This document shows, piece after piece, positions 11,910 to 27,595 of a stretch of DNA of 64,000 bases (within the stretch, counting starts at the first letter, position 1; each line of letters starts with the position of its first letter). A program made the translations under genes and the position numbers. This DNA comes from a virus: positions 32,001 to 96,000 of the IMG/VR virus record IMGVR_UViG_3300021091_000020; one strand, given 5' to 3'. The notes beneath the pieces are model-generated. The model saw nothing but the letters and a program-made list of their open reading frames with translations, was not told where the DNA came from and made no database searches.

Positions 11910-11916
11910 ATCATCC

Positions 11917-13350: not shown

Positions 13351-14736
13351 TTATATGTTAAAAAACTTCTGTGTTGTGTTTGTGGAAACGGTTTGCATAT
13401 TCAATAACATCTTACGATACGGTTTGAATTTGTAACCCATCTGTTCCAATGAAGAATTAAACCAATCTTCCGAATAATTATCTTTATTTCGTTTACCATT
13501 TGAAACTATCGTTTGCATATCACGAATAAAGTTATCAAGTTTATTCATGTCTCTGGTCAATCTTATCAATCTCAATCTTCTTCTGTTATATTCTTCTTCA
13601 TCTTGTTCTAATCTTTGTATCTCCAATATAAGACTTTTTAACGAATTTTCCAAATCATTTATATCATAAGACAAAACTAATTCAGCAAATTCTGTTCCTT
13701 TGAACAAGTCAATATATGTTTTATCATAAATTGGAATAGTCATCAAGTTCTTTTCTATCTGAGCATATTCAAATCTTGGTGTGATGAACATTCCGAAGAA
13801 AGGCACTTTGGTGTTTGTTGTTGATATACTAAATCTACAACCAGTTAAAAAGTTCATCATACTTTCCATCGTGTATGTTCCGGCGAGTATCATTGGTTTA
13901 TCGTTATCAAAAACTTTGAACACAGTTGGATCCAAATCAAAGTCTGGTAGAAATGTATCACTAAAAGTTTTACGAGAAACATTTGCGTGTTCTGCTAATA
14001 TCTTTACATGATTGAAATAATTTTCGGGCGAGTAAGTGTTTCCGATGTGAACCAATTTCTTACCTGAAAGGTCTTTCAATCCTAAATTGCCCATTGTTTC
14101 TACTATCGGTTTGAAGTTCCCATGACCTTTGAATTTAGCATAGTATGCACATTCTGAAATATATGGTAATTCTTTTTTATCTATCCATGATTTTTCAATC
14201 CACTTGTCATAGATACTCATGTCAATGTAACCACCGACTTGAAAAGTATATGCAGAAGTTCCTCTCATTCCAATATACTCTTTGAGTGCATCCACAAAAA
14301 ACGGTGTGTATGTTAAATAATAATCACTATATTTTATGAAAGCAGGAACACAAATAGTATTGAAGTGCATGCCCTCATACGGGTATATCTCATGGTCAAA
14401 GAATGCAGTTATAGTATTCAACTTACAATACATCTTTGCCAAGTCAATCAATTTTTGTTTGTGTTCTGGTTTTCTTTTTTCTATACCATCAACATCATAG
14501 ATAAATTTGTTGAGGTTCAAAACAACAATATCATAACCTTCCAATTTGTTTTTCAGTTCTGTCATTTCCATTTCGGAAATATCTACACAGTTCTGATATT
14601 CAGATTTGAAATTATTTGTTTCGCTAGGATTAAAGTAAAAGGTATCAACACTATCCAGTGATGATATATTTTTTGTAAAGGTATGTATGCCCCTATAAAC
14701 CGAAAGGTCAATAATTGCTAATTGAGCTATTTTCAC
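13351..14736 (-). CDS. DNA alpha-glucosyltransferase-like protein (T4 AGT homologue)
   Basis: Collinear similarity, from recall, to T4 AGT: GIHTF~GVTKF, YDIVVLN~CDILIIN, FFDHE~YQHDH, YTFQ~YNFQ, GNTYSP~GLERSP, RFEYAQIE..TIPIY~SLEYTHLE..TIPVF, YDINDLE~FDENDME. GTG start. Confidence 0.65.
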   Translation of the reverse strand: MKIAQLAIIDLSVYRGIHTFTKNISSLDSVDTFYFNPSETNNFKSEYQNCVDISEMEMTELKNKLEGYDIVVLNLNKFIYDVDGIEKRKPEHKQKLIDLAKMYCKLNTITAFFDHEIYPYEGMHFNTICVPAFIKYSDYYLTYTPFFVDALKEYIGMRGTSAYTFQVGGYIDMSIYDKWIEKSWIDKKELPYISECAYYAKFKGHGNFKPIVETMGNLGLKDLSGKKLVHIGNTYSPENYFNHVKILAEHANVSRKTFSDTFLPDFDLDPTVFKVFDNDKPMILAGTYTMESMMNFLTGCRFSISTTNTKVPFFGMFITPRFEYAQIEKNLMTIPIYDKTYIDLFKGTEFAELVLSYDINDLENSLKSLILEIQRLEQDEEEYNRRRLRLIRLTRDMNKLDNFIRDMQTIVSNGKRNKDNYSEDWFNSSLEQMGYKFKPYRKMLLNMQTVSTNTTQKFFNI

Positions 14737-14761
14737 GAAACACCTAATGATATTAGTTTAC

Positions 14762-14770
14762 TATAAATAT
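14762..14770 (-). promoter_or_regulatory. ATATTTATA motif (putative late promoter) heading the glycosyltransferase operon
   Basis: Exact copy of the recurrent intergenic motif, about 25 nt upstream of the AGT-like start. Confidence 0.5.
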
Positions 14771-14796
14771 CTAGTATTTTTACAAAACATTAAATT

Positions 14797-15708
14797 TTAG
14801 AATGGCATTATGTTTCTTTTTTCTTTCGGACAAAGTTCTTCGTTAGTATTAAATTCACAATACTTACAGTTTGAATAATTGTTACCGCCTTCGGCAGGAT
14901 ATATTACATCCAATTTATATTCACCGTCTTCGGTAAATACAGTTGTAATAAATTCAGCAATTTCTTTCTTTATATTGTTTTGAGAAACTTTGCCGTTCGA
15001 TGGTTCAAATCTTTGAACTCTTTGTTTCATTGCTTCGTATTCTGCATCTTCAATAATCTTTCTACGCAGAATTAAATACTCAACATTTATTTCTTCTGGA
15101 CTAACACCATATTGTTTTGCATAATATGTTTTGTATAGAACAAGTTGTGATGTCTTTACCTTATCTGCCTTTGCATATTTGTTCCAACCGTTTGTGCTGG
15201 TTTTGAAATCATATATGTATATCTCACCAGTCTTTGTATTCTTAATAACCAAATCCAAAAATCCAACAAGTTTAACTGTTGGATGTGTTTCGAGTGGAAC
15301 AATGTTTATAGGCATTTCAATACCAACCAATTCATAATCTTTCTTTTGAAAGAAATCTGCTCTATGTGCCTTAAACCAATGAAGAATTTGAACACCGTCT
15401 GAATAGTATTCTTTAAGTTCTTTATCACTTGAAAAGTGAACATCTTTATTTTCGGTGAGTAATTTTTTATATTCATCACGAATACCACTCTGTAACATTT
15501 CATTGAGATCAAGTTTATTTGCCTCAACAATTGATTTCTCATAGATGGTCTTAACATACTCTTGCAACACTTCATGCATTACTGTTCCGAATAGAGCAGC
15601 AGTTGATGGTTGATAAGTTGCGAGTTTATCTATGTATGCGAGTTTCCATCTATGAGGACAACCTTTCCATATTTGATATTGTGAAAAAGATACCTTTTTG
15701 TTAGGCAT
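14797..15708 (-). CDS. Cas4/RecB-like PD-(D/E)xK exonuclease
   Basis: SFSQY...CP, FGTVMHEVLQ, GFLDLV, IYDFKTS and QLVLY; C-terminal CxxC-x8-C completes a four-Cys Fe-S staple. Confidence 0.8.
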   Translation of the reverse strand: MPNKKVSFSQYQIWKGCPHRWKLAYIDKLATYQPSTAALFGTVMHEVLQEYVKTIYEKSIVEANKLDLNEMLQSGIRDEYKKLLTENKDVHFSSDKELKEYYSDGVQILHWFKAHRADFFQKKDYELVGIEMPINIVPLETHPTVKLVGFLDLVIKNTKTGEIYIYDFKTSTNGWNKYAKADKVKTSQLVLYKTYYAKQYGVSPEEINVEYLILRRKIIEDAEYEAMKQRVQRFEPSNGKVSQNNIKKEIAEFITTVFTEDGEYKLDVIYPAEGGNNYSNCKYCEFNTNEELCPKEKRNIMPF

Positions 15709-16079
15709 TATTTACCCCACTTACCTGACTGAACAAGTTGTGCAATGATACCATATACCGAAATATCTTTGAATGTATCATCCAAACATTCACCGACTGC
15801 ATCTTTTGAACCAAACATAATCATTTGTTTGTAACGATTTACTTTATCATTTATACGAAAGAAAAGACCCTGTAAAGAAAGTTTACGGTCTTCTTCTCTT
15901 TCCAATGATGATCCCATAGAGATATTATCAGGACCATAATTAGACTGTTTTGCACAAAATAATTCATATTGTGCCTGTTGTATTCTCTTAAACTCGGCAG
16001 TCATCACCGGAAATTTCTTTTCCATTTCAGTAACAACATCGGGCTGTTTCCTACCCAAATCAATTTCTTTTATTGACAT
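15708..16079 (-). CDS. Nucleotide modification associated domain 1 (DUF1599/Nmad1)-like all-alpha protein
   Basis: FCAKQSNYG, RINDKVNR, ECLDDTFKDISVYGII and W at the C-terminus. Confidence 0.7.
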   Translation of the reverse strand: MSIKEIDLGRKQPDVVTEMEKKFPVMTAEFKRIQQAQYELFCAKQSNYGPDNISMGSSLEREEDRKLSLQGLFFRINDKVNRYKQMIMFGSKDAVGECLDDTFKDISVYGIIAQLVQSGKWGK

Positions 16080-16090
16080 TTTATTATTCC

Positions 16091-16543
16091 TCATTTTATA
16101 TTCTTTAATTGTTTTTCAAATTTAGTAATATCTGCTTCCGGCGTTCCATATTGTTTCAATATATCAATAAGTTCATCTTGGTTATTCTCTTTCAGAAATC
16201 TGATGTATGCATATACTTCATTTTTTCCCAACTCAAAGTGGTTACAAAGTGTAGATAGAATTTCTGGTTCTATTTCCATTTTGTGTTTAGACTTTATGTA
16301 TTTCAGGAAAATGGATTTCTTTGGGAGAATATCTAGCAAAAGTTTATAGTAATCCTTTGAAGATAGTATTCCATTTGAATATGTTTGAAACTCATTTATG
16401 ACTTCAACAAATTCCGGCTCCATTGAAAAGAAACGAGCAATCATATAATTGCTCCATGATTTTGTATCTTCTTCTGAAAGTTCTTCCCATTTTGTTTTAC
16501 GGAAAGTAACTCCTTTAATATGATCAAATAAACTTTTTGCCAT
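16091..16543 (-). CDS. gp62: Clamp loader small subunit (T4 gp62-like)
   Basis: SLFDHIKGV, YMIARFFSM and LPKKSIFLKYIK; located two genes downstream of gp44. Confidence 0.7.
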   Translation of the reverse strand: MAKSLFDHIKGVTFRKTKWEELSEEDTKSWSNYMIARFFSMEPEFVEVINEFQTYSNGILSSKDYYKLLLDILPKKSIFLKYIKSKHKMEIEPEILSTLCNHFELGKNEVYAYIRFLKENNQDELIDILKQYGTPEADITKFEKQLKNIK

Positions 16544-16551
16544 GATAATCC

Positions 16552-16821
16552 TTAATCGTTTAGTTGTTGTCTTTTTGTTGGCATAAATTCGTCATTGATA
16601 TGACCACATTGCAAACAAGCATAAGTTGGAATTGGAACAATACCTTCCTGTCCGTTTGGCGAAATCAATGCCGAAATCTTTTTGAAGAAAGTTACTTCGT
16701 GAAAAAATTTGTGTCCACATTTTGCACATGCAATATCTGATGCTTGGTTTAGATCAAAACTAATTCTTTGTTGATCTTGTGGTGGTTGTCCACCACCATT
16801 GATGTCATAAATACCCATCAT
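16552..16821 (-). CDS. Zinc-ribbon protein
   Basis: CAKCG and CLQCGH pairs; KISALISP. Confidence 0.6.
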   Translation of the reverse strand: MMGIYDINGGGQPPQDQQRISFDLNQASDIACAKCGHKFFHEVTFFKKISALISPNGQEGIVPIPTYACLQCGHINDEFMPTKRQQLND

Positions 16822-17759
16822 TTTCTCCTTTGGTCAATTTCCATAATAATTTGAATAAACATAGCCATGGCATTTATTTCATGGTCTACAACAAAACTAT
16901 CTTTGTATTGTGCTTCAGCAATAATCAAAATAATAGTTGATACGAAACCATTAGCGAATGTATCAACAGTATCGTAAAGATGTCTGAACATTTGATTGAA
17001 GTCACGAACATGATTGTCAGCAAGTAACTGACGAATACCATCAAACTTTTCTTTTTTGTTTTTATTTGATTTGAGAATATCAACAATTGAAGAAAGATAA
17101 TTGTGTTCTACCAAAGTTGTTTCATCTAATTTCAAAACACCACCAATAACACATCGTTGAGTTGTGTTAATTACACGGCGAATATCTGGATATGATTGAT
17201 TGATAATCGTTGCAAGATTATCCTTTTCATACTTTATATTCTCACCATCAAGAATTTTTACAAGATGTTGTGCAACTTCTTTTTTTGACGGTGGAACTAT
17301 GTTAAAGATTTGACAACGAGATTGAATTGGATCAATAATCTTATCTACATAGTTACAAGTCAAAATAAAACGAGTTGTCTTACTGAATGTTTCAATTACA
17401 TTACGAAGTGCCGCCTGAGCATTTGGCGTCATGTAATCACATTCATCCAATATAATTAGTTTCAATCCACCAAAACCAATCGAAGAAGCAAACTGTTTGA
17501 TTTTATCACGAACAGTATCTACTGAATTTTCATCTGAAGCATTGATGTAAATATAATTATCTTTTGCAATAGTATTTGCAACAATCTTAGCAAGGGTAGT
17601 TTTACCACTACCGGCATCGCCATACAAAAGAAGATGTGGAACATCACTTGTATCAATATACTGTTGGAATGTTGCCTTTACAGTTTCATTGCCAACATAA
17701 GTGTCAAGTGTCTGTGGACGATACTTTTCATTCCAAATTGTGTGTGAAGCGTTAAACAT
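16818..17759 (-). CDS. gp44: Clamp loader AAA+ subunit (T4 gp44 / RFC small subunit)
   Basis: WNEKYRP, Walker A GDAGSGKTT, INASDE, ILDECD and the SRC motif. Confidence 0.95.
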   Translation of the reverse strand: MFNASHTIWNEKYRPQTLDTYVGNETVKATFQQYIDTSDVPHLLLYGDAGSGKTTLAKIVANTIAKDNYIYINASDENSVDTVRDKIKQFASSIGFGGLKLIILDECDYMTPNAQAALRNVIETFSKTTRFILTCNYVDKIIDPIQSRCQIFNIVPPSKKEVAQHLVKILDGENIKYEKDNLATIINQSYPDIRRVINTTQRCVIGGVLKLDETTLVEHNYLSSIVDILKSNKNKKEKFDGIRQLLADNHVRDFNQMFRHLYDTVDTFANGFVSTIILIIAEAQYKDSFVVDHEINAMAMFIQIIMEIDQRRK

Positions 17760-17790
17760 AACATACCTTATTGGTTAATAAATTCATCTA

Positions 17791-17821
17791 CTAATATATG
17801 TAATTTTCGCCTAATATCCTA
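17791..17821 (-). promoter_or_regulatory. Putative early/middle promoter (CATATATTAG -10 box)
   Basis: Same -10 box as at 21268, 27893 and 43400, but with a weak -35. Confidence 0.4.
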
Positions 17822-18889
17822 GCGATTTTTTTGAAATACGAAGATTGGCTCTCTTTTATAGCCAGCCCCCATAACAGCGGACAGTATCAGTTGTAGAGTA
17901 TCGGTGTGATCGAAACCAACTAGGTTGGCATACTTTATAGTCATTTCTTCCAAATCTTTATACTTTGGTGTGTTGGCTATGTTTATTAGCATATAGCCAC
18001 CCATTTTCAATCCGTGATAACAATTACGGAAAGTTGATTGAAGAAAACCAGAACCCCAAGTTTCACGGGTTGGAAATTTATTATACGATTGAGTTTCTTC
18101 ATCTGCATATTTTTCAGTATCGAAATATGGTGGCGATGTAAAACATAAATCTAAACTATCTTTTTCGGGAAGATAATCTTCCGAACCCATCATATTCAAT
18201 TGAATATCTTTACCGAGATAATCAAAATCATCGCGTAATTTACACAGACCTTCAAATGTTTTCGTTGATGGTTCTGTTCCAATATAAGTTTTAATATGAG
18301 GGGAAGCAAGAGCACCAACCAATCTTCCACCCCAACCACAAGACATATCCCACATCACACCGTCACCACCATACTTTTTATAGATAACACCAGCAGCAGT
18401 TGGTCTAAAATTGGAAACACCTTGAACACCAGAATATATTTTAAGTGATTGACGAAGACGGTTCTCTTGAAAGGAACTACCCCAATGTTTTGACAACCAC
18501 TTCAAACATTTGCGTATTGTCATTTTGAATGTTTGGTCATTCAAAAAATTATCGATTGGAGACATCTTTGAGTTTCCGCATTTAACTTCCATCGCGTGCG
18601 GAAAGTATGACCACGCTAACCGAAGTCCGTTCATGGTTTGAATTATATCACCGTCTTTGAAAATACTATCATAATCAAACTGTTGTAGTTTTCTCATGTG
18701 TTCATGTTTTTCGTGTTCAGTAATTTTCATATATGGATAACCGTGTTTGCGGTAATACTGAAAGATACAATCTATTGTATCATCCAATTCTCTTTTACCT
18801 GCAAAAAATTCACCGGTCTCTTTCCACAAACGAACTTCTAGCGGATCAACATCAAAGAATTTACTTAAACTATCGCCGTTAGGTTTCAT
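17819..18889 (-). CDS. Amino-methyltransferase-fold DNA modification enzyme (paralogue 3)
   Basis: SNFRP, WDMSCGWGGRL (motif I), YIGTEP and FTSPPYF (motif IV). Start moved to ATG 18889, just after the upstream stop. Confidence 0.75.
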   Translation of the reverse strand: MKPNGDSLSKFFDVDPLEVRLWKETGEFFAGKRELDDTIDCIFQYYRKHGYPYMKITEHEKHEHMRKLQQFDYDSIFKDGDIIQTMNGLRLAWSYFPHAMEVKCGNSKMSPIDNFLNDQTFKMTIRKCLKWLSKHWGSSFQENRLRQSLKIYSGVQGVSNFRPTAAGVIYKKYGGDGVMWDMSCGWGGRLVGALASPHIKTYIGTEPSTKTFEGLCKLRDDFDYLGKDIQLNMMGSEDYLPEKDSLDLCFTSPPYFDTEKYADEETQSYNKFPTRETWGSGFLQSTFRNCYHGLKMGGYMLINIANTPKYKDLEEMTIKYANLVGFDHTDTLQLILSAVMGAGYKREPIFVFQKNR

Positions 18890-18890
18890 G

Positions 18891-20516
18891 TTAGGGTTTA
18901 TAGAAAACAAAAATTGGTTCGTGCTTAAACCATTCACCATTGTATAAAACTTTATTTGCTAATCGTTCTGGATCGGAATTACCAATCATCTTTGTCATAA
19001 GCATACACATTTTACCTTTGTATTCCATTCCCAAAGATTTTAATATATCAATAGAATCTTGTTCAAGATTTATTGTTTTGGTTGCAGATACTTTGATATT
19101 TGCAATGTTCCAACAAATATATCTATCATTTTTCAAATAAGCAACAGCAGTTTCCAATGTTGGTTTCAAAAAGTTATCACGCCAATCTGCGTATTCTCCG
19201 TGTGCCTTATATGATTGTGTATCATCATCAGAATACATTTCACGATTGAAATACGGCGGTGATGTGAAAACAAAATCCAATTTACCTTTATACTTTTGAA
19301 AATCAGGATTGAATTGTATTGTTTCAGAACCATCTTGGAAAACTTCGTATGTATGGTCTTCTCTTACATCAAAGAACTTCGATGAAAGTGAACTACCTTT
19401 CTCACCAATAGACTTCAAATAAAAGTCTGCAAGATATTCATAACGAGTAATTCCCAAATCAGGAATTGAATTGTCTGTGTTTGGATCCGTTCCAACATAA
19501 TGTATCGGCCTACTCACCGACATTGCTCCTAAAATTCTTCCACCCCAACCGGCACTTGGATCATATACCGTAACCATTTCACTTGCTGGAATATGTTTTG
19601 TAAAATGTTCATACAAAAACTTTGCAGTCATTGGTGGAAAGTTTACAGCAGGTTGTGAGAAAGAAATACGGAATATCTGAAATGCTTGTGGAAATAATTT
19701 TGCACTCTTTTCATATACTCTTACCAAGAAAACATTTACTCTTGGTTCTTCACCGTCTTTTTTTATCATAAAATTATCAGACAGTTCTTCTATATCACCT
19801 AAATAAAATATCATACTCACATCAAGTATTCCATCCTTAACAAACTCACGGATTTGGTCTGCCTTTATAGTCAAATACTTTGTATATTTTTTATTGTAGG
19901 TTTCAAGTGTGCAAGATATTTTTGATATACGCAAACCTTGTCCATCAAATCTACCATCACCATTCTTAAATGCAAGAAAGAAATCGCGTAGAGTTTCACC
20001 TTCTCGGAAATAAGGGTTCTTGATTTGATTTGATGAAATAGATTTACTATAAAGATACATCGAGTCATTGTAAAGAGTTCTACGCATAACATGATGAAAA
20101 GTATCTTTCATTTCATCGGTAAAGAAATCATAGATTGATCTAGATGTCTCACCACTTGTTCCACTCGCAATCTTTGTTTTCAGCATCGTTGGAAAGAATT
20201 GATTAGCAGCAGAACCATTTTTAGAGAAATTGGCAATGACGCCGATTATATCTTTGTCATTGCCTTTATCTGGATTATGAAAAACTTTTGATGAATTGAA
20301 TTGACGGAGCTTTGAAAACGATTGAACAATCTCCTCTTCGGATCTGCCAACGAGTGGTGGTTTACCGTTTTCATCCCAATCTTTCAAAAACCTCATTCGT
20401 AAATCTTCTACCCATTCGGAAAACTTTTTATCATCATAAGTTACCAATTCACCGTATGTAATATTACACGGCCAAGATAGAACATTACCCTTTTCATAAA
20501 AATATTTTTTCATCAA
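18891..20516 (-). CDS. Amino-methyltransferase-fold DNA modification enzyme (paralogue 2)
   Basis: VNFPP, YDPSAGWGGRI, YVGTDP and FTSPPYFNRE. Confidence 0.75.
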   Translation of the reverse strand: MMKKYFYEKGNVLSWPCNITYGELVTYDDKKFSEWVEDLRMRFLKDWDENGKPPLVGRSEEEIVQSFSKLRQFNSSKVFHNPDKGNDKDIIGVIANFSKNGSAANQFFPTMLKTKIASGTSGETSRSIYDFFTDEMKDTFHHVMRRTLYNDSMYLYSKSISSNQIKNPYFREGETLRDFFLAFKNGDGRFDGQGLRISKISCTLETYNKKYTKYLTIKADQIREFVKDGILDVSMIFYLGDIEELSDNFMIKKDGEEPRVNVFLVRVYEKSAKLFPQAFQIFRISFSQPAVNFPPMTAKFLYEHFTKHIPASEMVTVYDPSAGWGGRILGAMSVSRPIHYVGTDPNTDNSIPDLGITRYEYLADFYLKSIGEKGSSLSSKFFDVREDHTYEVFQDGSETIQFNPDFQKYKGKLDFVFTSPPYFNREMYSDDDTQSYKAHGEYADWRDNFLKPTLETAVAYLKNDRYICWNIANIKVSATKTINLEQDSIDILKSLGMEYKGKMCMLMTKMIGNSDPERLANKVLYNGEWFKHEPIFVFYKP

Positions 20517-21232: not shown

Positions 21233-21267
21233 AACAACAATCCTTAATGAATAGTAAATAATTTATG

Positions 21268-21298
21268 CTAATATATGAAATTTTTGCGTAATTTCAAA
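21268..21298 (-). promoter_or_regulatory. Putative early/middle promoter
   Basis: TTGAAA-N16-TATATT(AG) upstream of the clamp gene. Confidence 0.45.
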
Positions 21299-23810
21299 AC
21301 GAAAAAAACTTTTGTGCAACTTTTTTATTCTCGGTTGGGAAATCCCACTGCATTGCCTCATAGAAATTTTTTAACTTGCCATCCAATTCCGAAACAAATA
21401 ATTCATTGGCATCAAAATAATCCTTGACAAATTGTATAATTTCTTCTGGATCCGAATCACCACGAAATGCCAACTCTTCCAATCCGTATTTGTTTGATTT
21501 CAAATAAGCAATCTTAACCTTATCACCATTTTTAATTGGCGGATATTTAGGAGGACAACCAAATATAGTCAATAACTTATTATAGTTTATAGCCGCCTTG
21601 ATATGTGATGGCGTTCCCTTTGCATACTTACCGAGAACATCATCTTTAACGGGAGTAGCATACTTTTTAATATCTTTTATTGAAGAAGTTTTTGCAACCT
21701 CGTTTATCAAAACATCATTCAAATTCTTTTTGAAAGTCAATATGTATTCATCAATTTCATTTTTATCTTTACCTTTGAGAATATCAATCATCACATCCTT
21801 CATACATTTTTGAAATGATTTGGGAAAAGATGAACGAACAATATCCAAACCTTTAACTTCCAACTTATCCATTGGAACACCGTTATCAGAAATAATCCAA
21901 AGTGCATATCTCTTTTTCTTTTGCCAGAATCCTGTTCTACCAATCATTTCTTGTTTGATTTCCAAACGATGTTTGTCAGTATTGAATATCTTTTTGGCAA
22001 AAACATCATAAAATTGATTGACATAATCTTGAACTTCCGTTGCAATCTCATAAATCTTCGGCGTCATTGTTTCAATATCGTTTGTATCAATATCCGGAAA
22101 TCTATTATTCACCAAAGGTAAACACGAAACAAACACAGAGTCAGTATCAACATACTGCACATAATCAATATCATCGGTTTTCAATTCTTTATTGTATTTC
22201 ATATTGATAGCAGCTTCTGTTTTCTTGATAACCGTTTGACCAGAAAGTGTAACTGCTTCTGCATTGTCAATATCATAAAAACGAAATGCAGGTAATCCCA
22301 AGATACCATACATACTATTCAAAAGAATTTTCTGAACAAGTTGTCTTTTCTTGTAAAACTCATACTTTTCTGTATTTCCAGCTTTACCCCACTTCTTCAT
22401 TTCATTTTTATATTCCACCCGTTTATCAAACCAATCTGAAAGAATTGCTGGAATAAGTCCTGTTTTATCTGAACTATACATGACACCATTTGATGAAACT
22501 GTATACTTGTATTTATCAAGAAATGCTTTTAATTTTTCTTTTGATATACGGTCATTGCCAACAATATATTCATCTTTTTTTCCACGAAGAAAATCCTCAG
22601 CATTCCAATCTTCAATCTTAGCAATCTTTGTTTCTGGAGAAATGTTTAGTGTCATAATGATTGACGGATATAGTGATGTCAAATCCAAGTCATACATCCA
22701 ATCATATCTACCCGGAACAGGATCCTTAACAAATGCACCGATAAATCCTTTCTCACCGCTCTCTTTCAATTCTTGCATCTTTTCTTGTCTATCAGCAGGT
22801 TTGTTCGGAGCAACAACACCGCCAATATGTTTAAGATAAGTAAGCATAGCACCTTCCAAATACTTTGATGAATATACAAAGTCTTCATAAGGAACATGGC
22901 CAACATGAGCGATACCACGAACTAAATCAATATACTGTAACTTCTTGTCCAATTCGATAACCAACTCAACGTCAGTAATGTTGTATTCTATAAATGTATC
23001 AATATCATTTTCCATCAAGTCATCAAGGTTGCCTTCATACTCAACCTTACCACGACCAAGTTCGGTCATACAAACTGCGTTTAGAGCATAAGATGGTAAT
23101 TCTTTATATGAGAATTTTTTATACACGGTCATATAATCTAACACGGATGTTCCACCGATTGTATAACGATTACGATATGGTGAATAAAACATTTCACCAA
23201 TTACTGAAAGACTATTTGCTTGTTTTTTACCAAGAACTCTTTTGATACGATTATACAAATATGGAATATCGAATGCATCACAATTCCATCCAGTCATAAT
23301 ATGGGGTTGGATTTCTTGAATAGCATCTATGAATTTAAGCAACAAAGTTTTTTCATCTGGACAAGGAATTACTTTTTTGTTTTCCGTAGTTTTATTTTCC
23401 AATTTTCTTTTCTTGTCCAATACAAGAATTGTATATTGGTTTGTTGCGGAATCATGGTAAGCAATAGATGTAACTTCGTTATTACCTTGTGTTGGATCAG
23501 GAATACCGGTAATCATTTCAACCTCAATATCAAATGTCATTGTAACAATTCCTTTCGAGGGCATATCGGAATCACTATACATATCAACAAGAATACGAGT
23601 TGTCTCTGCAATATCCGATTCAAATAGGTCAGGATCATTCTTTACAAAGTTTGTAACCTTTGAAAGTTTATCACCGTATAGAGAAATATATTTACCGTTA
23701 GGATCTTTCTTGTAAGCATAAGGCGTGTATTCAAAATGCATCAAACCTTTGGCATCATCCCACACCCATGCTTCTTTTGTATTTGTTTTAACAAAAATGT
23801 TTTGATACAT
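21294..23810 (-). CDS. gp43: Family B DNA polymerase (T4 gp43-like)
   Basis: Exonuclease motifs FDIEV, GWNCDAFD and YNITD; polymerase motifs DLTSLYPS, KILLNSMYG and YVDTDS. True start is most likely MYQNIF (ATG 23810). Confidence 0.95.
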   Translation of the reverse strand: MYQNIFVKTNTKEAWVWDDAKGLMHFEYTPYAYKKDPNGKYISLYGDKLSKVTNFVKNDPDLFESDIAETTRILVDMYSDSDMPSKGIVTMTFDIEVEMITGIPDPTQGNNEVTSIAYHDSATNQYTILVLDKKRKLENKTTENKKVIPCPDEKTLLLKFIDAIQEIQPHIMTGWNCDAFDIPYLYNRIKRVLGKKQANSLSVIGEMFYSPYRNRYTIGGTSVLDYMTVYKKFSYKELPSYALNAVCMTELGRGKVEYEGNLDDLMENDIDTFIEYNITDVELVIELDKKLQYIDLVRGIAHVGHVPYEDFVYSSKYLEGAMLTYLKHIGGVVAPNKPADRQEKMQELKESGEKGFIGAFVKDPVPGRYDWMYDLDLTSLYPSIIMTLNISPETKIAKIEDWNAEDFLRGKKDEYIVGNDRISKEKLKAFLDKYKYTVSSNGVMYSSDKTGLIPAILSDWFDKRVEYKNEMKKWGKAGNTEKYEFYKKRQLVQKILLNSMYGILGLPAFRFYDIDNAEAVTLSGQTVIKKTEAAINMKYNKELKTDDIDYVQYVDTDSVFVSCLPLVNNRFPDIDTNDIETMTPKIYEIATEVQDYVNQFYDVFAKKIFNTDKHRLEIKQEMIGRTGFWQKKKRYALWIISDNGVPMDKLEVKGLDIVRSSFPKSFQKCMKDVMIDILKGKDKNEIDEYILTFKKNLNDVLINEVAKTSSIKDIKKYATPVKDDVLGKYAKGTPSHIKAAINYNKLLTIFGCPPKYPPIKNGDKVKIAYLKSNKYGLEELAFRGDSDPEEIIQFVKDYFDANELFVSELDGKLKNFYEAMQWDFPTENKKVAQKFFSF

Positions 23811-23811
23811 A

Positions 23812-25038
23812 TTATACCTTTTTGAACATCCATATTGGTTCACAAAACTTTTTATCTTTATTCTCTTGAGCAAACTGAACACTATCATCAAGAAAGTGTC
23901 CGTCTCTTGTAGCTGTTCCTGCACCGGCAGAGTTAGGTCTTTTGGACATTTCCATTCCGATACATCCCAAGTATTCCATTCCACTCTCTACAAGAAAATC
24001 ATTCATCGGGTTTGTTATCTCTAACCATTGTCTACCCGTAGACCATGCGGAATTTGTGTAAACATCTGCAATGTTTATTGCCATGACACCACCAACTCGC
24101 AATGATGGTATAATATTTCCTAGTGTCTTTTGTAGAAAATCTTTATTCCACATATCAATTCCTTTATATCGAACCCAACTCTGTGTATCTGATTGTGAAT
24201 ACTTCTCAACATTGAAATACGGTGGTGATGTAAACACCAAATCAAAATGTTCTGGATATTGTGAGAAATCAAAATCTTCTGCTGGTGATTGATAGAAATT
24301 TGTTTTCTTCTTACCTTCAAAGAAACCTAAATTCTTTTCATAGAACTGGACTTGTTCATCATATATCGGATGGTTTTCTACTCTTGGATCCAATCCAACA
24401 TAATGTTCGGTGCAAGAGGCAGCGTAAAATCCCGCAAGTCTGTCACCCCATCCCATAGAAAAGTCTAATACATTTTTTGCACCTAACATTTCGTACATAC
24501 ACTTTGCAACATTAGGTTTGAACTGTGAACAAATGTATTTACGCAATCCTAACATTGTTCTCAATTCTGATTTACCGATTGTTTCCATTTTAAGAGAATA
24601 CATAGAACCCATAAGTGACTTCATAAACTTATGGTTTTGCCATGTTCTAGCAGGACCTGGTGATACGGATGCATCAACTTCCCAACGGTTCTTTTGTTGG
24701 AAATAGTTTGATGCATCGTTACCAGTATTAAGACGACTGAAATATAACTGTTTTCCACCATAAGTCAAAGCATATTTTGGTTCGGATGCTTTTCTTGGAA
24801 ACCACTCACCTTCTTTTAGAATTTCATTCCAACGAATACCTTTCAATTTTAGAAACTCGCTTTGAGCACTTTCGATTGTAATATCCGCATACGGTAGTGG
24901 ATATGTCATTGCTATTTCAGCCAGACGGTCTTTGACATATTCTTTATCAAAGTTTTCTTTTATGTATGTTATTTGTTCAGCAGTTATGGATAGATACGGA
25001 TTCATTCCGTAAAATTGTTGGAAATAATCTTCTTCCAC
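23812..25038 (-). CDS. Amino-methyltransferase-fold DNA modification enzyme (paralogue 1)
   Basis: SQFKP, VLDFSMGWGDRL, YVGLDP and FTSPPYFNVE. Confidence 0.75.
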   Translation of the reverse strand: MEEDYFQQFYGMNPYLSITAEQITYIKENFDKEYVKDRLAEIAMTYPLPYADITIESAQSEFLKLKGIRWNEILKEGEWFPRKASEPKYALTYGGKQLYFSRLNTGNDASNYFQQKNRWEVDASVSPGPARTWQNHKFMKSLMGSMYSLKMETIGKSELRTMLGLRKYICSQFKPNVAKCMYEMLGAKNVLDFSMGWGDRLAGFYAASCTEHYVGLDPRVENHPIYDEQVQFYEKNLGFFEGKKKTNFYQSPAEDFDFSQYPEHFDLVFTSPPYFNVEKYSQSDTQSWVRYKGIDMWNKDFLQKTLGNIIPSLRVGGVMAINIADVYTNSAWSTGRQWLEITNPMNDFLVESGMEYLGCIGMEMSKRPNSAGAGTATRDGHFLDDSVQFAQENKDKKFCEPIWMFKKV

Positions 25039-25051
25039 AAAACACCTTTTG

Positions 25052-25348: not shown

Positions 25349-25353
25349 AACAA

Positions 25354-25638: not shown

Positions 25639-25658
25639 AATAATACCTTTAATAAAAA

Positions 25659-26306
25659 TTAAATGTCAATATCTTTCCAATCACCATTTGCAATAGTTTT
25701 TGTTGCCCATTTACCCATTATGTTTGCGTGTTTGTAGTAGTTATCTTCTATTATCGTTTCAAGTAATGTGGTTTCAAACATGAATGGTCTACCACTAACC
25801 TTTGTCATAAACTCACCACCTTGCCCCATCTTTCTATCTTTGAACTTAACTTCTTTACCAAAACCAGGATACGAACTTTCACAATCACTTGTTCCAATTA
25901 GTGTAGAACCATCGCCGTCTTTTGGAATATAGAGAATAGAATCCTGTTGATACTTACCGCCAAGATTTATCAAGTCTTCTCGCAATTTTCCTTTGTCTTT
26001 CAAATCAACAACAAAGTAAACATTTTCTTTAACTTCTTTTGCATCAGGTGTTCCGTAGTTTTCAATATAAGCACCTTGAACTGCAGTAACACCGTAACCC
26101 ATCATTTGAAGATTGGCATATAATTGTCTGTTTCTTTTTTGATTGTCACCTTTTGAATATGGTTTATCTTCAGCTGTAGCACAACCTTCTTTGGAACGAA
26201 ATGCAGTTATTGTGCCACAATCATGTTCTTCCATATGTTTTGACAATCGAGCAAGCCCACTCTCGTTTAATTGTTTATCTGGTAATAAATGTTTTAACTT
26301 TGCCAT
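25659..26306 (-). CDS. Conserved phage protein (DUF3293-like) with a leader peptide
   Basis: GTITAFR, NRQL...GY, G.Y.E and KYQQDSIL; N-terminal MAKLKHLL...LNE. Confidence 0.55.
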   Translation of the reverse strand: MAKLKHLLPDKQLNESGLARLSKHMEEHDCGTITAFRSKEGCATAEDKPYSKGDNQKRNRQLYANLQMMGYGVTAVQGAYIENYGTPDAKEVKENVYFVVDLKDKGKLREDLINLGGKYQQDSILYIPKDGDGSTLIGTSDCESSYPGFGKEVKFKDRKMGQGGEFMTKVSGRPFMFETTLLETIIEDNYYKHANIMGKWATKTIANGDWKDIDI

Positions 26307-26335
26307 TGTTTCTCTCTGTTATGTAAACTGTTTAC

Positions 26336-26344
26336 AATAAATAT
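26336..26344 (-). promoter_or_regulatory. ATATTTATT variant of the putative late promoter
   Basis: One mismatch to the motif, about 30 nt upstream of the 26306 start. Confidence 0.4.
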
Positions 26345-26349
26345 CAAAA

Positions 26350-26844
26350 TTATTTCTTATCTGTTGAACCAAAACCACCATCACCTCTATTACTATCGGA
26401 CAATTCTTTTACTTCTTCCAAGTGAACTTTTGGATATGGTATGATTACCAATTGAGCAACTTTGTCACCAATAACTGGAATTATTCCTTCGTTTACGCCT
26501 GAATATGGTAACTCAAATCTTACAAGAATTTCACCACGATAATTTGAATCAATAACACCTACTGAATTTTTAAGTGAGACACCTGGTGCCGATTTTGTAA
26601 TTGAACTTCTTGGAAATAGAAGTCCAACATGGCCATGTGGAATTTCTACAGCAATACCAGTTCCAAATTCCATAAAGGTATCTGATACTCTAAATGATGT
26701 TGCTGTCAAATCCATACCAGCATCACCATCTTGAGCATATTGTGGTGTTACTGCTTCTGAAACTAATTTACGAAATTTTACGGTTAGATCAAAATCATTT
26801 TTATATTCTACCGTAACATTAGGATTCGATGTATGCCAACCCAT
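26350..26844 (-). CDS. dut: Trimeric dUTPase
   Basis: AGMDL, PRSS, GVIDSNYRGE, AQL and RGDGGFGST. Confidence 0.95.
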   Translation of the reverse strand: MGWHTSNPNVTVEYKNDFDLTVKFRKLVSEAVTPQYAQDGDAGMDLTATSFRVSDTFMEFGTGIAVEIPHGHVGLLFPRSSITKSAPGVSLKNSVGVIDSNYRGEILVRFELPYSGVNEGIIPVIGDKVAQLVIIPYPKVHLEEVKELSDSNRGDGGFGSTDKK

Positions 26845-26845
26845 T

Positions 26846-27595
26846 TTAACCTCCTACATTCCAAAATAATGCATCTTCCGATGCGTGTTCTTTAATAAAT
26901 GACCAAACTTTTGAGTCATAGTAATCCGAAGAAGGAAATGGTGGCTTCTCTGCCGGTTTACATTTTTGTTCAAATTTATATTTCGATATGAATACTTCTG
27001 CCCTACCCCTCTCTCTGTCTGTTGTATTATGGCCAACCCTAACACCATAGACTTTTGCATCTGGCCATGCCCTCTGTAATCCTCTTGAAAGAACTCCCGA
27101 ACTTATACAAGACCAAACTTCTTTTGGTTTGATTGGCAACTGACTAGCAATTCTGGCAACTTCATCAATAACAACAGGATGATCAAGACCGAATGGCAAC
27201 AATTGTGTATCGGGTGTTTCAAGGGCATACTTTTTAGCAACACTTTGGATGTGTGTTAGAAACCCCATAGGAACTTCTATGATGTTTGCACCAATAGATA
27301 TTGCTTCTTCGGTTAGTGGTAAGTGTTTTCCTTTTGGAATAACAACGGTTGCCTTCAATCCTAAATCTTTACAAGCATAAGCAAGTGCTACTTGAGCATA
27401 GCCAACTCTTGGAGACGCATATACCCATTCACGAACATGGGATTGTGATTGAAGATAACGATAAAGGAAACGTCTTTTTGTTCCACCCGGAAGCAAATCA
27501 TCACGGACTACCCAAATGTTTTCGTGTTTTTCGATAACAATTTCAGGTAAAGTTATAGTGACATCTTTCGTGGGATATTGAAAGAAGTCTGTCAT
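26846..27595 (-). CDS. Fold-type II PLP-dependent enzyme (phage DNA-modification-associated type)
   Basis: VVRDDLLPGGTKRR (Schiff-base Lys), SSGVLSRGL phosphate loop, YYDSKVW and terminal LFWNVG. Confidence 0.75.
   Translation of the reverse strand: MTDFFQYPTKDVTITLPEIVIEKHENIWVVRDDLLPGGTKRRFLYRYLQSQSHVREWVYASPRVGYAQVALAYACKDLGLKATVVIPKGKHLPLTEEAISIGANIIEVPMGFLTHIQSVAKKYALETPDTQLLPFGLDHPVVIDEVARIASQLPIKPKEVWSCISSGVLSRGLQRAWPDAKVYGVRVGHNTTDRERGRAEVFISKYKFEQKCKPAEKPPFPSSDYYDSKVWSFIKEHASEDALFWNVGG

What the first reader, a model, noticed from the sequence alone, without database searches (positions are those of the whole stretch)
13351..27595. Candidate new replisome-coupled DNA hypermodification system
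Seen: the polymerase, clamp and clamp-loader genes are interleaved with three paralogous SPPY amino-methyltransferase-fold enzymes. They are flanked by a PLP enzyme, dUTPase, an Nmad1-like protein, a Cas4-like nuclease and a T4 AGT homologue. Established: Nmad1, fold-II PLP enzymes and AGT-type GT-B enzymes each occur in phage base-hypermodification pathways. Inference: this combination, with no hydroxymethylase, nucleotide kinase, aGPT-Pplase or deazaguanine gene in the window, matches no pathway I can name. One testable idea is that a SAM enzyme transfers an aminocarboxypropyl group rather than a methyl, the PLP enzyme decarboxylates or deaminates it, and the AGT-like enzyme glycosylates the product.
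Basis: partly seen in the sequence, partly recalled or inferred. Interest (0 to 1): 0.85.

Follow-up and report, generated by a model that had tools for sequence, protein, structure and literature searches.

The report
Phage DNA-modification genes within replisome operon
An uncultured lake-water phage has, woven into its DNA-replication genes, three methyltransferase-like enzymes, a vitamin-B6 enzyme related to a proven trimmer of amino acids attached to phage DNA, and a sugar-adding enzyme that carries the polymerase's own clamp-binding tail, which together suggest an undescribed decoration of its DNA.

Summary
The polymerase, clamp and clamp-loader genes are interleaved with three paralogous TSPPYF transferases of the N6_N4 DNA-methylase type. 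A PLP enzyme, a dUTPase and a divergent AGT-like gene flank them.

Comparison with about 290 loci splits the "system" in two.
- Housekeeping: the Nmad1-like gene, the PD-(D/E)XK nuclease, the dUTPase and the GT4/GT1 pair are also present in Microcystis phage Mel-JY01, which has no SPPY or PLP gene.
- Linked pair: the SPPY family and the PLP enzyme go together. PLP homologues sit with SPPY genes in 33 of 56 other viral loci, adjacent in 17. The two are fused in Erythrobacter phage R6L gp1 and in a metagenomic protein.

The PLP enzyme is homologous to phage M6 gp52, a proven decarboxylase of amino acid-base adducts in DNA. DNA-type glycosyltransferases lie in 24 of those 56 loci.

The AGT-like protein ends in QKFFNI and the polymerase in QKFFSF. 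A fold with the clamp gave only weak support.

No hydroxymethylase, TGT, QueC, C5-methylase or HD gene is in the 123.5-kb record, which is about 70% complete.

Best reading: a SAM-derived, PLP-trimmed base modification plus a clamp-tethered sugar transferase. The chemistry is unproven. Plain methylation remains a strong rival. This scan found the same SPPY+PLP module on at least five other genomes.

The parts
13351..14736 (-). Divergent AGT-like (PF11440-like) glycosyltransferase candidate, 461 aa. It has a C-terminal helical extension that ends in QKFFNI, the same tail as PolB.
   Evidence: No Pfam, PDB or phage hit. BLASTP to T4 a-gt gives E 0.006, residues 279-387 against 266-374; hhalign gives E 0.075. 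The ESM Atlas first hit is an AGT PF11440 cluster at 0.96. AF2 model is poor, pLDDT 42.6. Tail motif. Clamp fold: weak support, 0.40 against best control 0.01.
14797..15708 (-). PD-(D/E)XK (Cas4/exonuclease-like) nuclease. It is a conserved clade gene, so context rather than part of the modification set.
   Evidence: PDDEXK_1 E 1.7e-25; phrog_69 exonuclease. Present in Mel-JY01 and in distant relatives.
15708..16094 (-). 128-aa protein with a weak DUF1599/Nmad1 match. It is a conserved clade gene next to the clamp loader, so context.
   Evidence: DUF1599 19.9 bits against a cut-off of 25; phrog_1485, unknown function. It is 44-58% identical in distant relatives and in Mel-JY01, which lacks SPPY and PLP genes.
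16091..16543 (-). gp62-like clamp-loader small subunit.
   Evidence: phrog_225, E 3.6e-12.
16552..16821 (-). 89-aa zinc-ribbon protein, conserved between the clamp-loader genes.
   Evidence: Weak Zn_ribbon hits; conserved in relatives.
16818..17759 (-). gp44-like AAA+ clamp-loader large subunit.
   Evidence: AAA E 1.8e-17, DNA_pol3_delta2 E 1.1e-14, Gp44_lid E 0.0018.
17819..18940 (-). SPPY paralogue A (373-aa ORF). The real start is probably the ATG at 18889, one base after the stop of paralogue B, which gives 356 aa (inference). An SLSKFFDVDP motif lies near the N-terminus.
   Evidence: N6_N4_Mtase 27.3 bits; alignment A1. Relatives' ORFs start at MKPN....
18891..20516 (-). SPPY paralogue B (541 aa), with a long N-terminal extension and an SSKFFDV loop between motif I and motif IV.
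   Evidence: N6_N4_Mtase 25.0 bits; phrog_498 DNA methyltransferase E 5e-12. The loop motif is kept down to a 47% identical orthologue. B-type genes sit directly upstream of PLP genes in other loci.
20513..21232 (-). gp45-like sliding clamp.
   Evidence: phrog_223, E 2.9e-9. Alignment A4 of 25 orthologues.
21294..23984 (-). Family B DNA polymerase. The ORF's GTG start overlaps paralogue C, so the real start probably lies near residue 59. The C-terminus is ...AQKFFSF.
   Evidence: DNA_pol_B E 5e-40. 61.7% identity to Mel-JY01 PolB from residue 59. A C-terminal [KR]FF is kept across the clade.
23812..25038 (-). SPPY paralogue C (408 aa), the most widespread type.
   Evidence: N6_N4_Mtase 21.5 bits. 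3616 homologues; 4510 representative clusters at E<=1e-3. AF2 pLDDT 94.1. Best structural matches are TrmN and Trm11, Z 15.6-15.7, tied with generic methyltransferases. The ESM Atlas neighbours are viral N6_N4_Mtase clusters.
25659..26306 (-). SAM lyase family protein, in the same operon as the SAM-type transferases.
   Evidence: PF23780, 50.2 bits against a cut-off of 28. Kept in the sister lineage. Absent from the 56 distant PLP loci.
26350..26844 (-). dUTPase, a conserved clade gene (context).
   Evidence: PF00692 E 2.5e-16. 48% identical in Mel-JY01.
26846..27595 (-). Short fold-type-II (PALP) PLP enzyme of the M6 gp52 family, 249 aa. It has the RDDLLPGGTK lysine motif.
   Evidence: PALP 39.9 bits; phrog_7093 E 6.7e-36. 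BLASTP to M6 gp52 gives E 7e-14. Neighbourhood statistics. Fusions.
27604..27861 (-). Thioredoxin, the conserved upstream border of the variable slot that holds the PLP gene.
   Evidence: PF00085 E 2.9e-18. The order Trx-(HD)-PLP recurs in other loci. In the sister lineage the order is Trx, ThyA-like, AsnB-like, PLP.

Best explanation
The window holds a T4-type replication operon into which a DNA base-modification set has been woven.

The core of the set is the pairing of TSPPYF transferases with a short PLP enzyme of the M6 gp52 family. The transferases belong to the N6_N4 DNA-methylase superfamily and have motif I ahead of motif IV.

Inferred mechanism, two possible orders:
- An SPPY enzyme uses SAM to put a 3-amino-3-carboxypropyl group, not a methyl group, on an exocyclic amino group of a base in newly made DNA. 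The PLP enzyme then decarboxylates it.
- Or the PLP enzyme first decarboxylates SAM, and the SPPY enzyme acts as an aminopropyl transferase, as spermidine synthase does.

Either order would leave an N-aminopropyl-type base. The other paralogues may be true methylases or may serve other sequence contexts.

A divergent AGT-family glycosyltransferase carries the polymerase's clamp-binding tail. It is held at the fork by the sliding clamp, as T4 alpha-GT is, and adds a sugar to an acceptor that is not identified.

Shown: gene identities, the linkage and fusions, the homology to gp52, and the shared tail. Inferred: the donor group, the target base, the order of steps and the sugar acceptor.
For: 1. 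The paralogues keep an intact motif I and TSPPYF. 50 of 54 family members match N6_N4_Mtase. The C-type model is confident, pLDDT 94.1.

2. C-type identity tracks PolB identity (r 0.83 over 666 pairs from 37 loci). At depth it is more conserved than PolB or the clamp: 58.3% against 45-50% and 46.8%.

3. The PLP enzyme is homologous to M6 gp52 (E 7e-14). That enzyme decarboxylates amino acid-base conjugates in DNA (PMC8989533, passages).

4. Linkage of the PLP enzyme and the SPPY family:
- Among 56 viral loci with a 51-69% identical PLP homologue, 33 hold an SPPY-family gene (17 within 100 nt), 43 an HD protein and 24 a GT456 or TAGT glycosyltransferase.
- TAGT PF20691 scores E 1.8e-9 in L260.
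- A second PALP subfamily lies next to SPPY genes in 32 of 36 loci. Of the other 4, 3 are cut off by the contig end and 1 is a distant homologue.

5. Fusions and adjacency elsewhere:
- P0260 is an SPPF transferase joined to PALP.
- Erythrobacter phage R6L gp1 is N6_N4_Mtase joined to PALP.
- In Microcystis phage Mae-JY30 an N6_N4_Mtase gene is directly followed by a PALP gene.

6. PolB ends in QKFFSF and the AGT-like protein in QKFFNI. They are the only two real genes of the record with [KR]FF in the last 8 residues. The PolB tail motif is kept clade-wide.

7. T4 alpha-GT pulls down gp45 (PMC13216743, passages).

8. Fold of the clamp trimer with AGT-like residues 396-461: weak support.
- Score 0.40 (runs 0.40, 0.43, 0.40); best of 3 controls 0.01.
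- The mark was reached by 58 of 80 solved complexes and 2 of 110 mismatched pairs. At 0.60 or under it was reached by only 7 of those 80 and by both mismatches that passed.
- The runs agree in at least 40% of contacts; the partner's pLDDT is at least 43.

9. No hydroxymethylase, C5-methylase or deazaguanine gene is in the record.
Against: - No chemistry was measured. TSPPYF is the classical motif of plain N4-cytosine methylases, and the nearest Atlas clusters are ordinary viral N6_N4_Mtase clusters.
- SPPY copy number (0-3) and position vary even among close relatives. That is how accessory anti-restriction methylases behave.
- In this window the PLP gene is three genes away from paralogue C, not adjacent.
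- At least 2 loci with full 7-kb flanks (L239, L242) have PLP and HD genes without an SPPY gene.
- The HD partner found in 43 of 56 loci is absent from this record.
- A SAM lyase in the same operon would deplete the proposed donor.
- An aminopropyl group offers no obvious hydroxyl for a glycosyltransferase.
- The AGT assignment rests on weak evidence. There is no Pfam hit, hhalign probability is under 1% and the model is poor.
- The record is only about 70% complete.
- The loci counted are phylogenetically related, so the counts are not independent events.
Confidence: 0.42

Rival explanations
1. The three SPPY proteins are ordinary orphan DNA amino-methyltransferases (m4C or m6A) with different specificities. 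They are expressed with the replication genes so that nascent DNA is methylated against host restriction. The PLP enzyme, the SAM lyase and the AGT-like gene are unrelated accessory genes.
For: - The TSPPYF motif, the N6_N4_Mtase matches and the viral methylase neighbours.
- The record has two further canonical N6_N4 methylases.
- Gain, loss and replacement of copies among relatives with 76-88% identical gp44. Mel-JY01 has none.
- T4 itself places dam, b-gt and gene 42 beside replication genes.
Against: - Repeated fusion and adjacency with gp52-family PLP enzymes in unrelated phages. A plain methylase needs no PLP partner.
- The C type is inherited largely vertically and is more conserved than PolB, which is unusual for accessory methylases.
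- Glycosyltransferases of DNA type sit inside the same blocks.
Confidence: 0.3
2. A canonical hydroxymethyl-pyrimidine pathway, encoded in the missing ~30% of the genome, supplies the substrate. It would comprise a ThyA-like hydroxymethylase, with or without the kinase and amino-acid:DNA transferase. The PLP enzyme trims an amino acid on 5-hmdU, as in M6 and ViI. The AGT-like enzyme glucosylates a 5-hm base, as in T4. The SPPY enzymes are separate methylases.
For: - The sister lineage (PolB 83% identical, one record 100% complete) has, in the same slot: Trx, a ThyA-like gene (26.7 bits), an AsnB-like amidotransferase, a gp52-like PLP enzyme (E 7e-27 to M6 gp52) and dUTPase.
- PMC8989533 reports amidoligase and glutaminotransferase genes near dUMP hydroxymethylases in such clusters (passage).
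- The record is about 70% complete.
Against: - No PF00303 or ThyX in the 123.5-kb record, nor PF00303 in two close relatives of 115 and 73 kb. No homologue of the sister lineage's ThyA-like protein either.
- In the sister lineage the gene lies in the very slot that here holds only the PLP gene.
- The window's PLP subtype is the one that travels with SPPY genes in 33 of 56 loci.
Confidence: 0.15
3. The SPPY proteins methylate RNA or protein (for example m2G in tRNA or rRNA) rather than DNA.
For: The best structural matches are the m2G tRNA methyltransferases: TrmN (Z 15.7, rmsd 2.5, 177 aligned), Trm11 (Z 15.6) and Trm14 (Z 15.3). Foldseek's first hit is Trm11.
Against: - These rows are tied within Z 1 with unrelated O-methyltransferases.
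- Sequence profiles point to DNA methylases.
- The genes sit in the replisome operon.
- Relatives of the PLP partner are fused to N6_N4 DNA methylases.
Confidence: 0.05
4. The SPPY genes are cargo of selfish mobile elements (homing-endonuclease-linked cassettes) that insert between conserved replication genes. Their position says nothing about function.
For: - Variable insertion slots.
- Two family members carry an N-terminal LAGLIDADG domain (P0136 and P0149).
- PolB is split by insertions in some relatives.
Against: - No endonuclease gene lies beside the three copies in this window.
- C-type identity follows PolB identity, r 0.83.
- Mobility would not explain the PLP linkage.
Confidence: 0.05

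Closest known systems
Thymidine hypermodification pathways of Pseudomonas phage M6 (5-NedU) and Salmonella phage ViI (5-NeOmdU): 5-hmdU DNA kinase, amino-acid:DNA transferase (aGPT-Pplase), PLP decarboxylase gp52/gp226 (PMC8989533, passages read)
   Same: The window's PLP enzyme is a full-length homologue of M6 gp52 (27% identity, E 7e-14). The logic is the same: a PLP enzyme works on an amino-acid-type group attached to DNA bases. The genes sit among nucleotide-metabolism and replication genes.
   Different: No ThyA-like hydroxymethylase was found. Kinase and aGPT-Pplase were not tested. The recurrent partner is instead an N6_N4-type SPPY transferase, fused or adjacent. So the entry step, and probably the target atom (an exocyclic amine rather than C5-CH2OH), differ.
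T4 alpha-glucosyltransferase (PF11440) and its binding to the gp45 sliding clamp (PMC13216743, passages read; it cites Sommer et al. 2004, which was not read)
   Same: Weak collinear similarity to T4 a-gt and an ESM Atlas first hit to the AGT family. A clamp-binding tail shared with the polymerase. Weak support from the clamp fold.
   Different: No Pfam AGT match. There is a 60-residue helical C-terminal extension. No 5-hmC source is in the record. The gene is restricted to one narrow lineage.
Phage C5-cytosine methyltransferase + 5mYOX/TET + glycosyltransferase clusters that put glycans on 5hmC (bioRxiv 10.1101/2023.12.21.572611, abstract read)
   Same: A methyltransferase-type enzyme plus DNA glycosyltransferases in one phage gene cluster. 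A TAGT-family GT occurs in relatives' modules.
   Different: The methyltransferase here is of the amino (N6_N4) type, not C5. No 2OG oxygenase was found (the TET search is uninformative). A PLP enzyme and, in relatives, an HD protein are the constant partners.
Beta-class N4-cytosine/N6-adenine DNA methyltransferases (Pfam N6_N4_Mtase)
   Same: TSPPYF catalytic motif, Rossmann fold and profile matches.
   Different: Motif I lies ahead of motif IV, so the order is permuted relative to the Pfam profile. There is a conserved ~170-aa N-terminal domain. Only the first half of the profile matches. The family is almost wholly viral and is linked to PLP enzymes.

Membership tests
N6_N4_Mtase (amino DNA methyltransferases, PF01555) | (D/N/S)PP(Y/F) catalytic motif IV | tested here: met
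   TSPPYF is invariant in all three paralogues. S271 P272 P273 are invariant and Y274 nearly invariant (90% or more) in 54 family members.
N6_N4_Mtase (amino DNA methyltransferases, PF01555) | Score at or above Pfam's gathering cut-off (26.7 bits) over the whole domain | tested here: inconclusive
   Paralogue A 27.3 bits, B 25.0, C 21.5. Only profile positions 2 to about 107 match, because motif I lies upstream. 50 of 54 relatives match at E<=0.01.
N6_N4_Mtase (amino DNA methyltransferases, PF01555) | Transfers a methyl group from SAM to DNA | not testable with these tools
Sequencing runs are held only as contigs, so no base-level signal can be read.
M6 gp52 / ViI gp226 PLP-dependent decarboxylases of amino acid-DNA adducts | Full-length sequence homology to a proven member | tested here: met
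   BLASTP to M6 gp52 (YP_001294560): E 7e-14, residues 70-248 against 65-277. phrog_7093 E 6.7e-36.
M6 gp52 / ViI gp226 PLP-dependent decarboxylases of amino acid-DNA adducts | PLP-binding lysine near the N-terminus (K36 in gp52 according to PMC8989533) | tested here: inconclusive
   The sequence has RDDLLPGGTK (K40). gp52 has KREDL...PGPSF at the same place (fragment). BLAST did not align this stretch.
M6 gp52 / ViI gp226 PLP-dependent decarboxylases of amino acid-DNA adducts | Co-occurrence with a dUMP hydroxymethylase, a 5-hmdU DNA kinase and aGPT-Pplase | tested here: not met
   No PF00303 and no ThyA-like homologue in the record. Kinase and aGPT-Pplase were not searched. The record is about 70% complete.
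T4 alpha-glucosyltransferase family (PF11440 AGT) | Profile or sequence match to the family | tested here: inconclusive
   0 Pfam families at E<=0.01. BLASTP to T4 a-gt E 0.006. hhalign E 0.075, probability 0.8%. ESM Atlas first hit is an AGT cluster at 0.96.
T4 alpha-glucosyltransferase family (PF11440 AGT) | GT-B fold | tested here: inconclusive
   The AF2 model has pLDDT 42.6. Only the first ~110 residues show a beta-alpha-beta pattern. No fold search was run on it.
T4 alpha-glucosyltransferase family (PF11440 AGT) | Binds the sliding clamp | tested here: inconclusive
   It shares the QKFF tail with PolB. The clamp fold gave weak support, 0.40 against 0.01.
Nmad1 / DUF1599 (PF07659) | Score at or above Pfam's gathering cut-off (25 bits) | tested here: not met
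   19.9 bits, E 9.6e-4, 39 residues matched.
C5-MT + 5mYOX/TET + GT cytosine glycan clusters | C5-cytosine methyltransferase present | tested here: not met
   No PF00145 in the record; the search rang in 9 of 14 control genomes.
C5-MT + 5mYOX/TET + GT cytosine glycan clusters | TET/JBP dioxygenase present | tested here: inconclusive
   No PF12851 match, but no control genome rang either. No PF13640 match.

The most novel reading that the evidence does not exclude
A widespread, unstudied class of phage DNA hypermodification. Methyltransferase-fold SPPY enzymes transfer the aminocarboxypropyl or aminopropyl part of SAM onto exocyclic amines of bases in nascent DNA. A gp52-type PLP enzyme does the decarboxylation. 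In this lineage a clamp-tethered AGT-like enzyme adds a sugar without any hydroxymethyl-pyrimidine precursor. This would be a new donor chemistry and a new entry route for DNA hypermodification, physically coupled to the replisome.
Probability: 0.25. Interest if true: 0.88.

Novelty: new variant of a known kind. Interest (0 to 1): 0.7.

Why it matters
Known phage hypermodifications start either from a hydroxymethyl-pyrimidine or deazapurine precursor, or from C5-methylation plus TET. Here the only recurrent partner of a proven type of 'adduct-trimming' PLP enzyme is an amino-methyltransferase-fold protein, and the two are often fused. If that pair installs a SAM-derived side chain, it would add a new donor chemistry to DNA modification.

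The family is large: 4510 representative clusters. Such a modification would explain the resistance of many aquatic T4-like phages to restriction. It would also matter for sequencing and for enzyme tools.

The shared polymerase tail on the AGT-like protein gives a simple, testable rule for finding clamp-tethered DNA-modifying enzymes in this clade.

Tried and rejected
- Sequence searches of the PDB with paralogue B, the AGT-like protein and the SAM lyase found nothing. The PLP enzyme hit only serine dehydratases weakly.
- Foldseek on the paralogue C model gave only generic methyltransferases.
- The AGT-like model was too poor (pLDDT 42.6) to search by fold, so none was run.
- hhalign of the AGT-like alignment against the two neighbouring GT genes gave nothing.
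- tblastn of the AGT-like protein against 50,697 phage records gave no match at E<=1.
- I considered the conserved N-terminal (Y/K)F-x-(K/Q)-F-(Y/F) motif of the SPPY proteins as a clamp-binding motif. I did not adopt it. It is modelled with pLDDT 86-95 as part of the fold, and I had only one complex job, which I spent on the AGT-like tail.
- The TET/JBP search is uninformative because no control genome rang.
- Mel-JY01's whole record gave one match to the SPPY profile, at 12.2 bits and E 0.006. I treat this as none.
- Sequencing runs: 24 rows were listed, 18 of them lake-water metagenome DNA runs holding half or more of the sampled words. All are kept as Logan contigs, which cannot show base modification.
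- Literature searches:
  - No paper for 'Mel-JY01'.
  - Nothing useful for Nmad1/DUF1599.
  - No paper describing an amino-methyltransferase plus PLP DNA modification, or aminocarboxypropyl/aminopropyl bases in phage DNA.
The supplementary tables of PMC8989533 and of the Pyle et al. preprint may list such clusters.
- I considered the large GT and O-methyltransferase cluster at 355-13341 as part of a DNA glycan pathway. I set it aside because its GT4/GT1 pair is conserved in relatives that lack SPPY, PLP and AGT-like genes, including Mel-JY01. This is not excluded.

Full report
**What the window is.** The window is bases 32001-96000 of a 123,502-base IMG/VR virus record judged about 70% complete. 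GC content is 27-38%. All real genes in the region are on the minus strand. The closest cultured relative is Microcystis phage Mel-JY01 (PolB 61.7% identical); all other phage records are at 31% or less. Public runs that hold the stretch are lake-water metagenomes, kept only as contigs.

**Check of the observation.**

Pfam and PHROG scans give this order in the direction of transcription:
- thioredoxin
- PALP PLP enzyme (26846-27595)
- dUTPase
- SAM lyase (PF23780, 50.2 bits)
- two small unknown genes
- SPPY paralogue C (23812-25038)
- PolB
- clamp
- SPPY paralogue B (18891-20516)
- SPPY paralogue A (17819-18940)
- gp44-like clamp loader
- zinc ribbon
- gp62-like subunit
- a 128-aa protein with a sub-threshold DUF1599 match (19.9 bits against 25)
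- a PD-(D/E)XK nuclease
- a 461-aa protein without any family match (13351-14736)
- a long cluster of GT1, GT2, GT4 and GT7-like glycosyltransferases and sugar O-methyltransferases down to base 355

The three paralogues align at 24-32% identity, with an invariant DxSxGWGxR motif followed 60-100 residues later by TSPPYF, and an EPI(F/W) strand at the end. So motif I precedes motif IV, the reverse of the Pfam N6_N4_Mtase profile. This explains why only the first half of the profile matches. The interleaving is therefore real.

**What the SPPY family is.**
- Paralogue C has 3616 homologues at E<=0.001 among 4838 candidates. It matches 4510 representative clusters in an exhaustive search, 175 of them at E<=1e-30.
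- No cultured phage record covers more than half of it (19 records).
- 50 of 54 aligned members match N6_N4_Mtase.
- The nearest Atlas clusters are viral N6_N4_Mtase clusters (26 of 30 hits).
- An AlphaFold model built on 54 sequences is confident (pLDDT 94.1, pTM 0.92).
- Its best structural matches are the m2G tRNA methyltransferases TrmN (Z 15.7, rmsd 2.5, 177 aligned) and Trm11 (Z 15.6). Unrelated O-methyltransferases are within Z 1 of them. So the fold says 'amino-methyltransferase-like' and no more.

**Comparative anatomy.**
- I fetched 80 viral loci with paralogue C and 80 with gp44, and mapped all window proteins on them.
- SPPY genes occur in 0-3 copies and in at least four different slots of the replisome operon: before PolB, between clamp and gp44, between gp62 and the DUF1599-like gene, and between that gene and the nuclease.
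- Among relatives with 76-88% identical gp44, some lack the copy before PolB (L133, L147). Others lack type A (L130, L137, L138). In L130, L132, L137 and L138 the copy before PolB is a 51-53% identical replacement.
- Yet over 666 pairs from 37 distinct loci, C-type identity follows PolB identity (r 0.83). At PolB 45-50% the C type is still 58.3% identical and the clamp 46.8%.
- Mel-JY01 has the same operon without any SPPY gene. Its whole record gave only a 12-bit match to the family profile.
- The DUF1599-like gene, the nuclease, the dUTPase and the GT4/GT1 pair are all present in Mel-JY01 and in distant relatives. They are clade housekeeping and not markers of a modification pathway.

**The PLP enzyme is the informative partner.**

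It has the RDDLLPGGTK motif and matches phrog_7093 at E 6.7e-36. tblastn against phage records found 60 records, 51 of them Pseudomonas phages of the M6/YuA type. The M6 hit is gp52, YP_001294560. A direct BLASTP gives E 7e-14 over residues 70-248, up to the shared C-terminal FWN(V/I)G. PMC8989533 (passages read) shows that M6 gp52 and ViI gp226 are PLP-dependent decarboxylases that act on amino acids attached to thymine in DNA.

The two best cultured hits were annotated 'DNA modification methylase':
- Erythrobacter phage R6L gp1 is a single CDS with an N6_N4_Mtase domain followed by a PALP domain.
- In Microcystis phage Mae-JY30 an N6_N4_Mtase gene is directly followed by the PALP gene.

A metagenomic protein, P0260, is a full-length SPPF family member (30% identical to paralogue C) fused to a PALP domain.

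**Linkage statistics.**

Among 56 viral loci with a 51-69% identical homologue of the window's PLP enzyme:
- 33 hold an SPPY-family gene in the fetched stretch, 17 of them within 100 nt.
- 43 hold an HD-domain protein.
- 24 hold one of two glycosyltransferases.

One of those glycosyltransferases is a TET-associated glycosyltransferase family member (PF20691, E 1.8e-9).

Of the 23 loci without an SPPY gene, most have short flanks. L239 and L242 have 7 kb on both sides and still lack one.

Typical orders are:
- B-type SPPY, PLP, (GT, TAGT or two unknown genes), HD, C-type SPPY.
- Trx, HD, PLP, two unknown genes, C-type SPPY, PolB.
- gp44, PLP, C-type SPPY, zinc ribbon, gp62.

A second PALP subfamily (326 aa) lies in the order clamp, PALP, CxxCxxCC protein, C-type SPPY in 32 of 36 loci. 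Of the other four, three end at the contig edge and one is a distant homologue.

These loci are related phages, so the counts are not independent events. The fusions in R6L and in the metagenomic protein P0260, and the adjacency in Mae-JY30, lie outside the replisome-operon loci compared here.

**The AGT-like gene.**
- It has only 34 homologues, 33 of them at 85% identity or more and one at 61%. It is found only in close relatives. More distant relatives go straight from the nuclease to GT4.
- Evidence for the AGT family is weak but consistent:
  - a collinear BLASTP match to T4 a-gt (E 0.006, residues 279-387 against 266-374, including an EY..E....TIP motif);
  - hhalign E 0.075;
  - nothing against the neighbouring GTs;
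  - an Atlas first hit to a 100% PF11440 viral cluster at 0.96 with 175 shared features.
- The AlphaFold model failed (pLDDT 42.6).
- Its last residues, TTQKFFNI, match the polymerase's AQKFFSF.
- Among 474 ORFs of the record, four have [KR]FF in the last eight residues. Two are these genes. The other two are 62- and 71-aa ORFs on the opposite strand.
- PolB C-termini across the clade end in QKFFSF, EKFFSF, E(K/R)FF or LSKFFNFK. This is the pattern expected of a clamp-binding tail such as T4 gp43's SLDFLFG.
- T4 alpha-GT co-purifies with gp45 (PMC13216743, passages).
- A fold of the clamp trimer with residues 396-461 gave weak support:
  - Score 0.40; best of 3 controls 0.01.
  - The mark was reached by 58 of 80 solved complexes and 2 of 110 mismatches. 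At 0.60 or under it was reached by only 7 of the 80 and by both mismatches that passed.
  - The runs agree in at least 40% of contacts; the partner's pLDDT is at least 43.

**What is absent, and the sister lineage.**
- The record has no ThyA, ThyX, TGT, QueC, HD, C5-methylase or 2OG-FeII_Oxy_3 match. The TET search is uninformative.
- Three relatives with PolB 83% identical, one of them a 177-kb record rated 100% complete, carry in the slot between thioredoxin and dUTPase:
  - a ThyA-like gene (26.7 bits);
  - an asparagine-synthase-like amidotransferase;
  - a 279-aa PLP enzyme that matches M6 gp52 at E 7e-27.
- That looks like a hydroxymethyl-pyrimidine pathway.
- The window's lineage has neither of the first two genes. 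Its PLP enzyme is of the subtype that travels with SPPY genes.
- So the slot is a hot spot where different modification sets are exchanged.

**Reading.**
- A PLP enzyme of this family needs a free alpha-amino acid group.
- Where the only constant partner is a SAM-binding amino-transferase fold, the simplest source of such a group is the aminocarboxypropyl part of SAM. It could be transferred before decarboxylation. Or, as with spermidine synthase, it could be transferred after decarboxylation of SAM.
- This is inference from established enzyme families, not from a test.
- Plain methylation by orphan methylases remains a strong rival. A hidden canonical pathway in the missing 30% of the genome is a weaker one.
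- The SAM lyase in the same operon fits none of these readings well.

**Novelty.**
- My searches of the paper library found no description of an amino-methyltransferase plus PLP DNA modification.
- Earlier notes of this scan describe the same SPPY+PLP module on at least five other genomes and reach the same provisional reading. I reached it here from my own calls.
- New in this window are the three paralogues, the AGT-like gene with the polymerase tail, the SAM lyase, and the slot exchange with a ThyA-like set in the sister lineage.

Noticed in passing
window 355-13341: About 17 consecutive genes include GT1/GT4, GT2 and GT7-like glycosyltransferases and TylF-, FkbM- and CmcI-like sugar O-methyltransferases. 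This looks like a glycan-building cluster, possibly for virion or cell-surface glycosylation. Its GT4/GT1 pair is conserved next to the nuclease in relatives, including Mel-JY01.
   Followed up: partly
window 25659-26306: A SAM lyase family gene (PF23780) sits in the same operon as three SAM-type transferases. The record also has two more N6_N4 methylases. How SAM destruction and SAM use coexist is unexplained.
   Followed up: partly
G000:C1:858-1769 and 2390-3346 (outside the window): Two canonical N6_N4_Mtase genes (E 2e-16 and 6e-11) flank a 227-aa unknown gene at the start of the record.
   Followed up: partly
L169 (G002:C1:23923-27315) and L138:1-2001: The sister lineage has a ThyA-like gene, an Asn-synthase-like amidotransferase and a gp52-like PLP enzyme in the slot where the window has only its PLP gene. 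This is a probable hydroxymethyl-pyrimidine hypermodification set.
   Followed up: partly
L260:7735-11688: Inside an SPPY-PLP-HD module lie a GT-B-like gene, a TAGT (PF20691) gene and a 561-aa protein with HNH and GmrSD_N-like domains. This nuclease type is otherwise known from restriction of modified DNA.
   Followed up: no
P0136, P0149 (family members): SPPY-family proteins with an N-terminal LAGLIDADG_2 homing-endonuclease domain (E 1e-35 to 1e-38).
   Followed up: no
L020:12373-17776; L188-L193, L200, L206: PolB matches come in two or three pieces separated by 0.6-1.8 kb in several relatives. This suggests inteins, introns or endonuclease insertions in the polymerase gene.
   Followed up: no
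window 28263-33152: A 1629-aa ORF with no Pfam match at E<=0.001, directly upstream of the operon.
   Followed up: no
window 18887-18940 and 23812-23984: There are two ORF overlaps. Paralogue A's listed start overlaps paralogue B by 50 nt, and an ATG one base after B's stop is the likelier start. PolB's listed GTG start overlaps paralogue C by 173 nt.
   Followed up: partly
L023:13762-17142; L173:3192-4094: Other neighbours of PLP genes in relatives are an Asp/Asn beta-hydroxylase-like protein, a YunG-like protein and a RimK-type ATP-grasp ligase. They may be further tailoring enzymes.
   Followed up: no
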